From Minisyncoccia bacterium (lineage in GTDB: Bacteria > Patescibacteriota > Minisyncoccia > Phycocordibacterales > UBA9973), in assembly GCA_965662335.1 (NCBI GenBank), contig CBFIGQ010000047.1:13131-77130 (forward strand): DNA of 64,000 bases, read 5' to 3'. Positions 22,161 to 26,042 of the stretch are shown piece by piece. Position 1 is the stretch's first letter. The number at the start of each line of letters is the position of its first letter. The notes beneath the pieces are model-generated. The model ran no database searches and was not told the DNA's origin. It saw only the letters and a list, made by a program, of their open reading frames with translations. The position numbers and the translations under genes were made by a program.

Positions 22161-24406
22161 TCCTGTCCCTCTGGTTATCTTCAAATAACTGCAGGAGAGG
22201 AGACAGTAGTACTGGATCAGCTCGAGCGGTCGAGCGAAGTCTGGTACGAACCCGCCTGATTCTCGGAGAGAGCTCTGGCGGGCATGATTTCTAGATTTCC
22301 TAATAGGAAATCAAGAGCATATGGTGGATGCCTAGGTTCTACATGGCGATGAAAGACGCGGGAGGCGGCGATACGCTTCGGGGAGGTGCCTACAAACCTT
22401 TGATCCGGAGATTTCTGAATGGGGAAACCCAATAGAGTAAACCTCTATTATCCCGACACATAAGTGGTCGGGGAGCGCACCCAGGGAAGTGAAACATCTC
22501 AGTACCTGGAGGAAAAGAAAAAAATGTTATGTATATAACGACATTCCCTAAGTAGCGGCGAGCGAAAAGGGACAAGCCCAAACCGGTGCATCATGGAGAC
22601 AATAAATTTATTTGTTGTCTCCATGATGCACCGGGGTTGTAAGGCAAAAGCGTCAATTTATTGAGAAGAGTTACAAAATGTATGTATAGAAGAAGTTGTT
22701 GGAAACCAACGCCATAGTGGGTGATAGCCCCGTAGTCGAAATGCATATATCTCTTTTGCTTTTGTTCTTGAGTACTTCCGGACACGAATAGCCGGGAGGA
22801 ATCCGCCAGAACTAACTGGTAAGGCTAAATACATTGTAGAGACCGATAGTGAACTAGTACCGTGAGGGAAAGGTGAAAAGTACTCCGAAAGGAGGGTGAA
22901 ATAGTACTGAAACCATATGCTTACAAGGAGTCGGAGCGGGTATTTATATCCGTCACGGCGTGCCTATTGAAGAATGAGCCAACGAGTTAATCTGTGCGGC
23001 TTGGCTAAGGTGTAAAGCACCGGAGCCGTAGGGAAACCAAGTGTGAATAGCGCGCAATTGGTCGTACAGATTAGACCCGAAGCCAGGTGAGCTATCCATG
23101 AGCAGGGTGAAGTTTGTCGAAAGACAGATGGAGGCCCGAACCGGTAAATCGTACAACGTTTTCGGATGACTTGTGGATTGGAGTGAAAAGCTAATCGAAC
23201 CTGGTAATAGCTGGTTCTCTCCGAAATAGCTTTAGGGTTAGCGTCACGTGTTCCCTTTGGGGGTAGAGCACTGGAAAGTTTCGACAGGGAGCAATCTCGC
23301 GACACTTATCAAACTCCGAATACCAAAGGTTAAGAACGTGGCAGTTAGTCTACGGGGGCTAAGCTCCGTCAGACAAAAGGGAAACAGCCCAGATCTCTAA
23401 ATAAGGTCCCTAAATCTGCACTCAGTACATCATAAGGATGTGAGATTTCTCTGACAATGAGGAAGTTGGCTTAGAAGCAGCCATCTTTTAAAGAAAGCGT
23501 AACAGCTCACTCATCGAGAGATCTTGCGCCGCAGATAATCGGGGTTAAGTGCAGTACCGAATTTGAGGGCTTGTAGATTTCATAAAGGAAAGAAAATTTT
23601 GGCGTGAGAAAGATTGGATACCAGATTGGCTCCACTTCTTTCTCTGCCAATCTAATTCCTTTTTTTATGAAATCTATAAGCGGTAGGAGAGTATTCCACT
23701 CTTGCTGTGAAGGCAAAGGCGTGAGCCATGCTGGAGCGTGTGGAAGTAAGAATGTTGGCACAAGTAACCGCAAGTCGGGTGAGAAACCCGGCCGCCGAAA
23801 GACTAAGGTTTCCTGGGTAACGGTTATCGTCCCAGGGTTAGTCGGGGCCTAAGGTGATGGCGAGAGCCGCAACCGATGGACAGTGGGTTAATATTCCCAC
23901 ACTTCTATTGTATTCGATGGAGGGACGAAGGGTAGTAACATATGCCTCTTATTGGATTGAGGTAGACATAGAGCGCAGGTAGGATAGGTAAATCCGTCTT
24001 ACAATACTGTCAACTATGGCTCGTGCGAAGCTACGGCTTAGCGAAGATATGTGAGCACGCTTCCGAGAAAAGCTTCTAAGATTAGTACAGTAGAACCCGT
24101 ACCGTAAACCGACACAGGTAGTCAGGTCGAGTAGACCAAGGCGAACGAGTGAGGGATCCCCAAGGAACTCGGCAAAAAAGCAGCCGTAACTTCGGGATAA
24201 GGCTTGCCGGCAGCAATGTCGGCCGCAGCGAAAGTATTCCTGGCAACTGTTTATCAAAAACACAGCTCCCTGCGAACTCGTAAGAGGATGTATAGGGGGT
24301 GACACCTGACCAATGCCAGAAGGTTAACCAACGGTGGTGCGATTATATCAAGCTGGCTGTTGTAAGCCCTGGTGAATGTCGGCCGTAACTATAACGGTCC
24401 TAAGGT

Positions 24407-24615
24407 TTTGCATTTCAACCTCGTTGGAATGCAAAACGGACTAGGACTGTCTATAGAAAACGATAAACAATTTAAAAGAATAATCATTACATTTCAAGCT
24501 ACCTTTCATAGCGTAATCTATGAATAGTCCATTGTGATTAACGAGAGACCAACGTCACAGTTCCGACCCTTGTAAAAGGAGGAATAAGAGAGAGTCCAAC
24601 TGAGAGGAATAGTTG
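24407..24615 (+). other. About 209-nt ORF-less insertion in 23S between CCTAAGGT and AGCGAAATTCC (E. coli ~1917 region); group I intron-like
   Basis: Flanking exon sequence is contiguous in other 23S rRNAs; upstream exon ends in T and insert ends in G, as for group I introns; no ORF. Confidence 0.5.
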
Positions 24616-25274
24616 AGCGAAATTCCTTGTCGGGTAAGTTCCGACGCGCACGAATGGTGTAATGACTGGGAAACTGTCTCGGGGATTTGCTCGGTGAAAA
24701 TACAGTACCGGTGAAGATGCCGGTTACCTGCAGTTAGACGAAAAGACCCTAGAAGCTTTACTACAACTTGGTATTGGGCATGTTCTAGTACTACGTAGCA
24801 TAGGAAGGAGACTTTGAAGCGCCGCTTTCGGGCCGCGTGGAGTCGTCAGTGAAATACTTCTTTGTACGTGGGCATGTCCTAACCAGCGCGGCAAAAACGA
24901 GCTGGAACAGTGCCTGGTGGGTAGTTTTACTGGGGCGGTATCCTCCCAAAAAGTAACGGAGGAGTTCAAAGGTAGGCTAGGCGCGAATGGAAACCGTGCC
25001 GATAGTGCAATGGCATAAGCCTGCTTGACTGTAAGGGGGACATCCCGAGCAGGTGCGAAAGCAGAACATAGTGAACCGACAATTCGCATTAGATGCGGTT
25101 GAAGATTAACGGATAGAAGCTACTCTAGGGATAACAGGCTAGTTCCGCCTAAGCGTCCATAGCGACGGCGGAGTTCGGCACCTCGATGTCGGCTCACCTT
25201 ATCCTGGGGCTGGAGAAGGTCCCAAAGGTTTGGCTGTTCGCCAATTAAAAAGGTACGCGAGCTGGGTTCAGACC

Positions 25275-25715
25275 GTGAGGAAGTGAAAAGTACTACCATG
25301 AAGTGTACGGAACGAAGGGATACGACTCTTGTTTGCGTGATACTCATGAGTTCAAGTCTCTTTTGACTGACTCACCGTCTGAATCCTTGAGGAAATTTTT
25401 TGAAATGTTTTTTATAAAAACATTCACATATAAAATATGTTTTAGTCTTTTCGTCTAATAAGGTTAAAGCTCGTGTTCTCTTCTGCAAAGAGTACATGAG
25501 AGAAAGATAGTAATAAAAGAAACCAATCAGTTACGGCGGCTTCATATGGAGACATATGAAGTATGCTCAACTAATATCGGTGAAGGCCTTATGGGTTAAC
25601 ACCGAGGGAACCGTAAGGGCCCGTAGAGACTACAACTACGTTGAGGCACTCATGAAGTGCAAGATATAGTCCATTCCATACAGTAATGTGTGAATAAGAA
25701 GCGTAAGACAGGTTG
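25275..25715 (+). other. About 440-nt ORF-less insertion in 23S between GGGTTcAGAcC and CGTaAGACAGgTtGG (E. coli ~2585-2593 region); group I intron-like
   Basis: Conserved flanks interrupted at a classical rRNA intron site; exact boundaries ambiguous by a few nt; no ORF above 60 aa. Confidence 0.5.
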
Positions 25716-26042
25716 GTCTCCTATCTACTGCAGGCGTTGATACTTGAAGAAATTCGCTCCTAGTACGAGAGGACCGGAGTGAACGAACCTCTGGTGTACG
25801 GGCTCTAGTGCCAACTGGACCGCCCGGTAGCTATGTTCGGAATGGATAACCTCTGAAAGCATCTAAGAGGGAAGCCAGTTCTAAGATGAGGTATCGTCAA
25901 GGGCCGTAAGAGATGATTACGTTGATAGGCACCAAGTGTACGCGTAGTAATGCGCTCAGCTGAGGTGTACTAATTGCCCGACTCCTATTAGGAAATCTGG
26001 AAATCATAAATAAGAAAAGAAAAAATAATTCGAGCGCACTGT

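What the first reader, a model, noticed from the sequence alone, without database searches (positions are those of the whole stretch)
22293..25998. 23S rRNA interrupted by two ORF-less intron-like insertions at classical group I intron sites, plus expansion segments
Conserved 23S sequence is broken between CCTAAGGT and AGCGAAATTCCTTGTCGG by about 209 nt (24407-24615, ends in G, preceded by T). It is broken again in the GGGTTTAGAACGTCGTGAGACAG region by about 440 nt (about 25275-25715). Both sites (E. coli ~1917 and ~2590) are recurrent group I intron targets, yet neither insertion carries a homing-endonuclease ORF. Additional ~100-nt helix expansions occur at 22570-22640 and 23575-23690. Intron-laden rRNA with lost endonuclease ORFs is a hallmark of CPR-type genomes; the compact 209-nt element is near the lower size limit for group I ribozymes.
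Basis: partly seen in the sequence, partly recalled or inferred. Interest (0 to 1): 0.5.

Follow-up and report, generated by a model that had tools for sequence, protein, structure and literature searches.

The report
Two introns in CPR 23S rRNA
The 23S rRNA gene of this ultra-small (CPR/Patescibacteria) bacterium carries two endonuclease-free group I-type introns: one is ordinary, and the other belongs to a widespread family, missed by the standard intron model, that lacks the normally universal P4-P6 scaffold.

Summary
The 23S gene (22301-25992) is interrupted at 24407-24615 (209 nt, after E. coli U1931, not ~1917) and at 25277-25701 (425 nt, between U2593 and C2594). Both insertions follow U, end in G and have no ORF or detectable endonuclease relic.

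Insertion 2 is a canonical group I intron of a family found at this site in 47 of 65 related 23S genes. It has P1 with a U.G wobble, P10 and P2-P9.

Insertion 1 belongs to a family found in at least 76 species genomes and 91 metagenome contigs, nearly all CPR. Rfam's group I model misses it. The family keeps a group I P3/P7 pseudoknot, P8, J8/7, P9 and terminal G, with strong covariation. Only about 8 nt separate the P3 and P7 5' strands, so P4-P5-P6 is absent from its canonical place. The guide pairs U(-1) with A, not G. Three intron segments pair with about 19 exon nucleotides, two of them backed by compensatory changes.

The other insertions are hairpin extensions, one at the classical helix-45 IVS site. 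Intron-rich CPR rRNA is already known; the P4-P6-less architecture seems undescribed. Splicing was not tested.

The parts
22301..25992 (+). 23S rRNA gene (3692 nt including two introns and hairpin insertions); 5S follows at 26043-26149
   Evidence: Rfam LSU_rRNA_bacteria 2373 bits, full length 1-2925
24407..24615 (+). Intron 1 (209 nt) at L1931: member of a compact group I-derived family without P4-P6
   Evidence: MAFFT against E. coli rrlH places it after position 1931. Family model R1 scores 177.3 bits, E 5e-54. No Rfam hit at E<=10.
24407..24435 (+). Intron 1 hairpin a, starting at intron nucleotide +1
   Evidence: All 9 pairs show compensatory changes in 77 sequences (helix 2)
24438..24442 (+). 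Helix X 5' strand (GGACU); pairs with 24526-24530 (AGUCC)
   Evidence: 100% paired. G:C to U:A at two positions in independent sets.
24442..24447 (+). Guide segment 1 (UAGGAC), complementary to 5' exon GUCCUA (-10..-5)
   Evidence: Compensatory intron-exon changes: GUUCUA/UGGAAC in 7 rows, AUCCUA/UAGGAU in 2 rows
24448..24469 (+). Hairpin b
   Evidence: Helices 4 and 5 (80-95% paired, few compensatory changes)
24498..24504 (+). Internal guide GCU|ACCU, a perfect complement of the ligated junction AGGU|AGC (P10 + P1). U(-1) faces A.
   Evidence: Read from the sequence. 99.7-100% paired. The only variation is C to U opposite exon G. A is invariant in 168 members.
24505..24524 (+). P2 hairpin with GNRA-type loop
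   Evidence: All 6 pairs have compensatory changes (helix 7)
24526..24530 (+). Helix X 3' strand (AGUCC)
24533..24559 (+). P3 hairpin (UGUGAU/GUCACA). Its 15-nt loop holds the P7 5' strand (GAGAGACC, 24543-24550). No room for P4-P6.
   Evidence: All 6 P3 pairs are compensatory (helix 8). The alignment with canonical introns shows a ~70-nt P4-P6 insert exactly here in those introns only.
24560..24585 (+). P8
   Evidence: 4 of 5 pairs are compensatory (helix 11)
24586..24597 (+). J8/7 + P7 3' strand (AAGAGAGAGUCC)
   Evidence: P7 partner types GACUAU/AUAGUC, GRCCAU/AUGGUC and GACC/G-A-GUC. Resembles the group I consensus AAGAUAUAGUCC.
24598..24614 (+). P9 hairpin. Its loop AGGAAU (24605-24610) is complementary to 3' exon AUUCCU (+7..+12).
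   Evidence: All 3 P9 pairs are compensatory. L9-exon compensatory changes: AUACCU/AGGUAU, GUACCU/GGGUAC, UUUCCU/AGGAAA.
24615..24615 (+). Terminal G of intron 1 (omega G)
   Evidence: Conserved at the 3' end of the family; among the 66 distinct sequences aligned only L065 ends in A
25277..25701 (+). Intron 2 (425 nt) at L2593: canonical group I intron with a long ORF-less 5' region
   Evidence: Rfam Intron_gpI 32.3 bits (below gathering score 50), E 1.5e-6, on 25515-25693. 47 homologous insertions sit at the same junction. Tested homologs score 36.6-61.8 bits.
25377..25386 (+). Intron 2 guide segment GUCUGAAUCC, complementary to 5' exon GGGUUCAGAC
   Evidence: Motif conserved in the printed L2593 introns; coordinates
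25531..25539 (+). Intron 2 internal guide UUACG|GCGG: P10 with 3' exon CGUAA, P1 with 5' exon CCGU including the U(-1).G wobble
   Evidence: Read from the sequence. P10 pair C:G to U:A covaries with exon CGUG/CGUA.
25540..25701 (+). Intron 2 core: P2 25540-25561; P3 25565-25571 with 25640-25646; P4-P5-P6 25577-25622; P7 5' strand 25623-25633; P8 25647-25659; J8/7 and P7 3' strand 25660-25672; P9 25673-25695; omega G 25701
   Evidence: Rfam alignment. Family consensus fold has 94.9% standard pairs with covariation in P2-P6, P8 and P9.
23569..23682 (+). Long hairpin insertion at the tip of helix 45 (E. coli 1163-1184), the classical IVS site
   Evidence: MAFFT. Fold of -55 kcal/mol as one hairpin. 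No homolog in related loci.
22583..22634 (+). Domain I hairpin extended by 30 nt into a 24-bp perfect stem
   Evidence: Rfam LSU alignment; fold

Best explanation
Both large insertions are group I-type introns. They are transcribed within the pre-23S rRNA of a Paceibacteria-like CPR bacterium and removed by splicing, which restores the H69-H71 linker (position 1931) and helix 93 of the peptidyl-transferase centre (position 2593).

Intron 2 is a standard group I ribozyme. Its internal guide, about 255 nt from the 5' splice site, forms P1 (with a U.G wobble) and P10. The P3-P9 and P4-P6 domains are complete, and the intron ends in G.

Intron 1 is a member of a large CPR family derived from group I introns. 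It keeps the catalytic half: the P3/P7 pseudoknot with a bulged-A G-binding helix, J8/7, P8, P9 and the terminal G. It has no P5-P4-P6 domain between P3 and P7. It holds its substrate with three guide segments that pair with 5' exon -10..-1 and 3' exon +1..+3 and +7..+12. A family-specific helix X closes the substrate-binding region next to P3. The splice-site U faces A instead of G.

Shown here: the anatomy, family membership, covariation and intron-exon pairing.
Inferred: that excision uses guanosine-initiated transesterification, and that intron 1 does this without a helper.

The helix-45 and domain I insertions are hairpin extensions. The helix-45 one is probably an RNase III-type IVS.
For: Sites and ends:
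- Insertion 1 lies after U1931.
- Insertion 2 lies between U2593 and C2594 and ends in G, as do 47 homologous insertions.

Intron 2:
- Intron_gpI E 1.5e-6, with all core elements aligned.
- All 8 homologs tested hit Intron_gpI at 36.6-61.8 bits.
- Family consensus fold: 94.9% standard pairs, with covariation in P2, P3, P4, P5, P6, P8 and P9, and a compensatory P10 pair.

Intron 1:
- Family model R1 scores the window copy at 177 bits. It also finds 11 genome members outside the seed alignment and 91 metagenome members.
- 51 pairs are 95.7% paired, against 76.7% in shuffles. The covariation score is 0.556 against 0.188 (0 of 500 shuffles reach it). Slid controls give at most 0.084.
- P7 partner types covary.
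- Aligned to canonical introns, the family lacks exactly the ~70-nt P4-P6 block.
- Guide-exon compensatory changes are seen for the 5' guide segment and for L9. The central guide GCUACCU varies only by C to U opposite exon G.
- Canonical L1931 relatives of the same size have P4-P6 and a G.U wobble, and are seen by Rfam. Family members are not.
- L015 carries the family intron as the only intron of a complete 23S gene.

Literature:
- CPR rRNA insertions cluster at 1931 and 2593 and are reported to be absent from transcripts (PMC11270868).
Against: - No RNA data or biochemistry was available, so excision and ligation are inferred.
- A Watson-Crick A-U at the cleavage site is atypical. An alternative 3-bp register (GGU with GCU) would give U.G, and it is not excluded.
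- The window's intron 2 scores below Rfam's gathering threshold (32.3 against 50).
- The CM alignment is fitted to the proposed structure, which inflates the paired percentages somewhat.
- The 5' domain (helix X, hairpin b, linker) could be a rearranged scaffold that I cannot recognise from sequence.
Confidence: 0.72

Rival explanations
1. Intron 1 is a crippled group I intron that cannot splice by itself. It would depend on a trans factor: a protein maturase or chaperone, or a P4-P6 domain lent by another group I intron.
For: - P4-P6 is missing, and it is regarded as a universal scaffold.
- LAGLIDADG genes are common in neighbouring introns of relatives.
- LAGLIDADG maturase activity is documented for a bacterial 23S intron (PMC3984707).
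- Most family-bearing 23S genes also hold canonical introns.
Against: - L015 (complete 23S) and L067 carry the family intron with no Intron_gpI hit at E<=0.01 in the locus.
- No LAGLIDADG homolog is found in the 64-kb window.
- The strongly conserved extra RNA features (helix X, tripartite guide) look like RNA-level compensation.
- From my own memory of Ikawa et al. 2000 (only the reference was seen): an engineered Tetrahymena ribozyme lacking P4-P6 retains some activity.
Confidence: 0.2
2. Insertion 1 is not spliced. It would be cut out by host RNases without ligation, leaving a fragmented 23S, or retained as an expansion segment.
For: - Fragmented bacterial 23S rRNA from IVS removal is well known.
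- No Rfam intron hit.
- 469 of 968 CPR 23S insertions are unclassified in PMC11270868.
Against: - The site is a single-stranded, universally conserved linker at the subunit interface, not a helix tip.
- The element is not a simple hairpin.
- It keeps a group I G-binding P7, J8/7 and a terminal G, and follows U.
- Its guides pair with both exons, with compensatory changes. That feature is only needed if the exon ends are to be aligned for ligation.
Confidence: 0.06
3. The 5' part of intron 1 (helix X, hairpin b, linker) is a topologically rearranged P4-P6 equivalent. The element would then be a permuted but complete group I core, not a P4-P6-less one.
For: - Helix X abuts P3 and is conserved with compensatory changes.
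- J3/7 (UAACRAGA) is conserved and could form triples with X.
Against: - There is no sequence or length resemblance to the P4-P5-P6 of related canonical introns.
- L2593 relatives show similar 5' elements (terminal hairpin, exon guide, and in some copies a hairpin-b-like stretch) in addition to a normal P4-P6.
- No covariation links the linker to the core.
Confidence: 0.15

Closest known systems
Canonical group I introns at 23S position L1931 (Thermotoga, per PMC11270868 reference 27; here L066, L051 and L058)
   Same: Same insertion site after U1931. Terminal G, P2, P3/P7 pseudoknot, P8, J8/7 AAGAUAUAGUCC-type strand and P9. L058 has almost the same guide (GCU-A-GCCU against GCU-ACCU).
   Different: The canonical ones have P4-P5-P6, a U.G wobble in P1, and a guide within about 11-20 nt of the 5' splice site. 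They score 43-82 bits with Rfam. The window's family lacks P4-P6, has A opposite U(-1), places the guide about 90 nt downstream, adds helix X and two extra exon guides, and is invisible to Rfam.
Group I introns at L2593 (from memory: the Chlamydomonas Cr.LSU / I-CreI site; CPR site listed in PMC11270868)
   Same: Intron 2 sits at exactly this junction and has the full canonical core, U.G wobble, P10 and omega G. Relatives carry LAGLIDADG genes in the same 5' loop.
   Different: The window copy has no ORF or relic. It has a 255-nt structured 5' region with an extra 10-nt exon guide, and scores only 32.3 bits against Rfam.
[quoted passage not shown]
   Same: A group I catalytic P3-P7/P8/P9 half without the P5-P4-P6 scaffold.
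   Different: That is a laboratory deletion with weak activity. Here it is a natural, conserved family with added elements (helix X, tripartite exon clamp) and unknown activity.
Intervening sequences (IVS) of bacterial 23S rRNA at helix 45
   Same: The 23569-23682 insertion is at the helix-45 tip and folds into a long hairpin, as IVSs do. CPR sites 23IS2 and 23IS4 are interpreted the same way in PMC11270868.
   Different: Cleavage and fragmentation are untested here. The sequence is lineage-specific (no match in related loci).
Divergent group I introns of Patescibacteria tRNA-Thr genes (PMC13011429)
   Same: CPR group I introns that RF00028 cannot detect.
   Different: Those are described as comparable to canonical introns in length and predicted secondary structure. 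The family here differs in architecture, not just in sequence.

Membership tests
Group I intron (canonical, Rfam RF00028) - intron 1 (24407-24615) | Inserted after U; last intron nucleotide is G | tested here: met
   Sequence. The terminal G is conserved in the family; among the 66 distinct sequences aligned only L065 ends in A.
Group I intron (canonical, Rfam RF00028) - intron 1 (24407-24615) | P3/P7 pseudoknot with bulged-A G-binding P7, J8/7 strand, P8 and P9 | tested here: met
   Covariation in P3, P8 and P9, and P7 partner types. Aligns to the same elements of canonical introns.
Group I intron (canonical, Rfam RF00028) - intron 1 (24407-24615) | P5-P4-P6 domain nested between the P3 5' strand and the P7 5' strand | tested here: not met
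   Only UUAACGA (about 8 nt) lies between them in all members. Canonical relatives have about 70 nt there.
Group I intron (canonical, Rfam RF00028) - intron 1 (24407-24615) | P1 between 5' exon and internal guide, with a U.G wobble at the cleavage site | tested here: not met
   The guide GCUACCU pairs with AGGU|AGC, but U(-1) faces an invariant A in 168 members. A weaker alternative register giving U.G is not excluded.
Group I intron (canonical, Rfam RF00028) - intron 1 (24407-24615) | Score at or above the Rfam gathering threshold | tested here: not met
   No Intron_gpI match at E<=10. None in 8 other family members at E<=0.01.
Group I intron (canonical, Rfam RF00028) - intron 1 (24407-24615) | Guanosine-dependent self-splicing | not testable with these tools
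   Needs an in vitro splicing assay or RNA data.
Group I intron (canonical, Rfam RF00028) - intron 2 (25277-25701) | U before the 5' splice site, omega G, P1 with U.G wobble, P10 | tested here: met
   Guide UUACG|GCGG at 25531-25539. The P10 pair covaries with the exon.
Group I intron (canonical, Rfam RF00028) - intron 2 (25277-25701) | Complete P3-P9 and P4-P6 core | tested here: met
   Rfam alignment over model positions 1-253. Family fold with covariation.
Group I intron (canonical, Rfam RF00028) - intron 2 (25277-25701) | Score at or above the Rfam gathering threshold (50 bits) | tested here: not met
   32.3 bits, E 1.5e-6. Homologs at the same site reach 50.3-61.8 bits.
Compact L1931 CPR intron family defined here (model R1) | Full-length match to the family covariance model, at L1931, with helix X, tripartite guide and a P3 loop carrying P7 | tested here: met
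   177.3 bits, E 5e-54, model positions 1-212. The window copy was in the seed. Non-seed members score 113-190 bits and 68-192 bits.
RNase III-processed IVS (helix 45) - 23569-23682 | Insertion at the tip of helix 45 forming a long, nearly perfect hairpin | tested here: met
   Position E. coli 1163-1184. Single hairpin of -55 kcal/mol.
RNase III-processed IVS (helix 45) - 23569-23682 | Excision giving fragmented 23S rRNA | not testable with these tools
   Needs RNA gel or RNA-seq end mapping.

The most novel reading that the evidence does not exclude
The 209-nt insertion represents a natural, widespread class of self-splicing ribozymes derived from group I introns. This class has dispensed with the P5-P4-P6 scaffold and the U.G wobble. 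In their place it uses a ~19-bp three-part clamp on both exons plus a new helix (X) next to P3. It would be a natural counterpart of the engineered 'minimal catalytic domain'.
Probability: 0.35. Interest if true: 0.8.

Novelty: new variant of a known kind. Interest (0 to 1): 0.58.

Why it matters
Intron-rich rRNA genes in CPR bacteria are known. About half of their 23S insertions remain unclassified because they match no intron model: 469 of 968 have no ORF and no hit (PMC11270868 Table S3).

This work assigns one large group of those insertions, at L1931, to a defined RNA family. The family has a covariation-supported structure and a usable covariance model.

[quoted passage not shown] That would give a compact natural system for asking what that scaffold is for. 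It would also improve rRNA and intron annotation in CPR genomes.

If they need a helper, they point to an unknown splicing cofactor in organisms with very few ribosome-biogenesis factors.

Tried and rejected
- Global MAFFT against E. coli misplaced the second insertion. I fixed the junction by hand from helix-93 pairing and confirmed it with 47 homologs.
- The exact-protein lookup of the neighbouring FtsW gene, meant to find the source contig, found nothing.
- The first pattern syntax was rejected.
- About 43 of the 119 genome pattern hits were not family members: chance matches in unrelated genes, natural second CCTAAGGT sites in normal 23S, or other introns.
I rebuilt it with 4-nt flanks.
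- An Rfam run on 18 loci failed internally. I repeated it on 8.
- Endonuclease relics: tblastn with LAGLIDADG ORFs from long L2593 relatives found nothing in either intron or in the window.
- A possible pairing between the A-rich linker (UAAUCA) and the P3/J3-7 region (UGAUUA) looked good in the window and gave one MI signal. It was not supported in the model-based alignments.
- Dependence on a co-resident canonical intron was rejected as a requirement: L015 and L067 have none detectable.
- The metagenome pattern also returned chance hits in coding DNA, for example L124, L127, L130, L138, L143 and L147.
- Literature searches for a natural P4-P6-less group I intron found none. The library is incomplete.
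Full report
**What is in the window**

Rfam finds a full-length bacterial 23S rRNA at 22301-25992 (2373 bits). A 5S follows at 26043-26149. The 16S lies 30 kb away at 56269-57880, and there is an RNase P RNA at 63482-63807. The 23S is 3692 nt long, against 2904 nt in E. coli.

Alignment to E. coli rrlH (locus L001) puts a 209-nt insertion at 24407-24615, exactly after U1931. The sequence shows CCUAAGGU|UUUGCA...AUAGUUG|AGCGAAAUUCC.

MAFFT misplaced the second insertion, so I worked it out from helix 93. 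The 5' exon GGGUUCAGACCGU ends at 25276. The 3' exon CGUAAGACAGGUUGG starts at 25702. Joined, they rebuild helix 93 with a GUAA loop and an A-U to C-G compensated pair. The insertion is therefore 25277-25701 (425 nt), between U2593 and C2594.

Both insertions follow U and end in G.

**Organism**

The conserved exon between the two insertions is 92-93% identical to 23S genes of MAGs labelled Paceibacterota or Minisyncoccia, or given only a generic bacterial label (L062, L076, L042, L068). Together with the unlinked 16S, this fits a CPR/Patescibacteria genome.

**Intron 2 (L2593)**

- Rfam's Intron_gpI matches 25515-25693 over the whole model, at 32.3 bits (below the gathering score of 50) and E 1.5e-6. 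It shows the typical AGAGACUA / AAGAUAUAGUCC strands.
- Of 65 related 23S loci with both flanks, 47 carry a 250-792-nt insertion at the same junction. All of those end in G. The other 18 have none.
- All eight homologs tested hit Intron_gpI at 36.6-61.8 bits.
- A consensus fold of 36 family cores has 94.9% standard pairs. Covariation is seen in P2, P3, P4, P5, P6, P8 and P9.
- The guide UUACG|GCGG (25531-25539) forms P10 with the 3' exon CGUAA. It forms P1 with CCGU, including the U(-1).G wobble. The P10 pair changes C:G to U:A together with the exon variants CGUG and CGUA.
- The guide lies about 255 nt from the 5' splice site. The intervening region holds a conserved GUCUGAAYCC (25377-25386) that is complementary to the 5' exon GGGUUCAGAC.
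- In longer relatives (L095, L065, L073) this region carries LAGLIDADG genes.
- The window copy has no ORF and no relic.

Intron 2 is an ordinary member of a known kind.

**Intron 1 (L1931): finding the family**

Rfam gives no intron match here, even at E<=10.

I scanned one genome per GTDB species for any 166-226-nt insertion between CCTAAGGT and AGCGAAATTCC. Sixty-five of them, together with the window copy, share an obvious architecture.

I built a covariance model (R1) from these sequences.
- It scores the window copy at 177 bits.
- It recovers 11 further genome members that were not in the seed.
- It recovers 91 metagenome members from a second, exon-independent pattern scan.

The genome members are labelled as CPR lineages or carry only generic labels, with two exceptions that are probably mis-binned contigs.

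**Intron 1: structure**

On the 77-sequence model alignment, 51 proposed pairs are 95.7% paired, against 76.7% in shuffles. The covariation score is 0.556 against 0.188, and 0 of 500 shuffles reach it. Slid controls give at most 0.084. The alignment is fitted to the model, so the percentages lean upward. However, 35 pairs show changes on both sides.

The elements, 5' to 3':
1. Hairpin a, starting at +1.
2. GGACU, the helix X 5' strand.
3. URGGAC, guide 1.
4. Hairpin b.
5. An A-rich linker.
6. GCUACCU, the internal guide.
7. P2.
8. AGUCC, the helix X 3' strand.
9. The P3 5' strand.
10. UAACGA.
11. GAGACC, the P7 5' strand with a bulged A.
12. The P3 3' strand.
13. P8.
14. AAGAKAGAGUCC, J8/7 plus the P7 3' strand.
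15. P9, with the loop AGGAAU.
16. The terminal G.

P7 partners occur as GACUAU/AUAGUC, GRCCAU/AUGGUC and GACC/G-A-GUC. Helix X shows G:C to U:A at two positions.

**The missing domain**

R1 also hits the window's intron 2 (26.7 bits) and the second introns of relatives. In that joint alignment the canonical introns line up as guide, P2, P3, a block of about 70 nt, P7, P3', P8, J8/7 and P9. The block is P4-P5-P6. The L1931 family has only about 8 nt at that place.

Canonical L1931 introns of the same size exist:
- L066 (186 nt) and L051 (207 nt), from Saccharibacteria-labelled MAGs, and L058 (194 nt), from an Omnitrophota-labelled MAG.
- They contain P4-P6 and a U.G wobble. L058's guide is GCU-A-GCCU.
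- They score 43-82 bits with Rfam.

So the family is not merely 'small'. It lacks a domain described as universally conserved (PMC6257700; PMC3984707). Its guide also places an invariant A opposite U(-1) in all 168 members. Loss of the wobble together with loss of the domain that carries its receptor (J4/5) is suggestive, but it is an inference.

**Exon clamp**

GCUACCU is the exact complement of the ligated junction AGGU|AGC. Its only variants are C to U opposite exon G.

The two further guides are supported by compensatory intron-exon changes.

| Exon segment | Exon sequence | Intron guide sequence | Support |
|---|---|---|---|
| 5' exon (-10..-5) | GUCCUA | URGGAC | main type |
| 5' exon (-10..-5) | GUUCUA | UGGAAC | 7 rows |
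| 5' exon (-10..-5) | AUCCUA | UAGGAU | 2 rows |
| 3' exon (+7..+12) | AUUCCU | AGGAAU (L9) | main type |
| 3' exon (+7..+12) | AUACCU | AGGUAU (L9) | at least 12 rows |
| 3' exon (+7..+12) | GUACCU | GGGUAC (L9) | 4 rows |
| 3' exon (+7..+12) | UUUCCU | AGGAAA (L9) | a few rows (L137-type variants) |

Together the intron pairs with about 19 exon nucleotides. Such alignment of both exon ends is what a splicing element needs. A retained expansion or a cut-only IVS would not need it.

**Rivals**

- *Trans help from a co-resident canonical intron.* This is not required. L015 (complete 23S) and L067 carry the family intron with no Intron_gpI hit at E<=0.01.
- *A protein cofactor.* I cannot exclude this. 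The window has no LAGLIDADG homolog, but only 64 kb is visible.
- *A rearranged scaffold (helix X, hairpin b).* This is also open. L2593 relatives have similar 5' elements in addition to a normal P4-P6, which argues against it.

**Other insertions**

- The helix-45 insertion (23569-23682; E. coli 1163-1184) folds into one long hairpin of -55 kcal/mol. It sits at the classical IVS site.
- The domain I hairpin at 22583-22634 is extended by 30 nt into a 24-bp perfect stem.
- PMC11270868 interprets short CPR insertions at the known IVS sites the same way.

**Literature**

- PMC11270868 reports insertions in 82% of CPR 23S genes. They cluster at 1917, 1931, 1952, 2593, 2604 and 2657, and often carry LAGLIDADG genes.
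- In that study only 45% match Rfam's group I model. 469 of 968 have neither an ORF nor an intron hit.
- PMC13011429 notes divergent CPR group I introns that are invisible to RF00028 but have normal architecture.
- I found no description of a natural P4-P6-less group I intron. The searchable library is incomplete.

**Verdict**

The general phenomenon is known. The architecture of the L1931 family appears to be a new variant of a known kind, and its activity is untested.

Noticed in passing
window 56269-57880: The 16S rRNA gene lies 30 kb downstream of the 23S-5S pair, on the same strand, so the rRNA genes are unlinked. It has no large intron. It carries a 37-nt insertion after E. coli position 68 and a 56-nt insertion after position 1173, plus smaller indels.
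   Followed up: partly
window 63482-63807 and 38267-38354: The RNase P RNA (class A) scores only 117.9 bits, against a gathering score of 100. Only one tRNA (Ser-GGA) is found in 64 kb.
   Followed up: no
L129, L132, L135 (metagenome contigs), just 3' of the L1931 intron: These 23S genes have another insertion starting about 22 nt after the L1931 intron, after GUCGGGUAG (around E. coli 1951). That leaves a very short exon between two introns. Their 3' exon variant AAAUACCU is matched by the L9 variant AGGUAU.
   Followed up: partly
L027 (MAG labelled Nanoarchaeia) and L082 (MAG labelled Segetibacter): Both hold a bacterial CPR-type 23S gene with the L1931 family intron on short contigs. They are most likely mis-binned contigs, not real occurrences outside CPR.
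   Followed up: no
L185:4317-4486 and upstream: A family member whose 5' part is replaced or extended: the total distance to an upstream CCTAAGGT-like site is 365 nt. Its 5' exon context looks different (…GGUCUAAGGU within the intron-proximal sequence). It could be a rearranged or nested copy.
   Followed up: no
window 25330-25352: The ORF-less 5' region of intron 2 contains GAGUUCAAGUCUC, which resembles a tRNA T-arm. ARAGORN and Rfam call no tRNA there.
   Followed up: no
L098:1668-1926, L066, L089, L044, L101 and others: Relatives often carry three or more group I introns in one 23S gene, at further sites. Several carry LAGLIDADG ORFs. The window's gene has only two introns and no endonuclease gene.
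   Followed up: partly
L009, L014, L034, L037, L090, L111, L116, L119: In these non-CPR genomes the insertion pattern matched because a second CCTAAGGT lies about 170-190 nt upstream in the normal 23S sequence. They are not insertions. This is a caution for pattern-based intron counts.
   Followed up: partly
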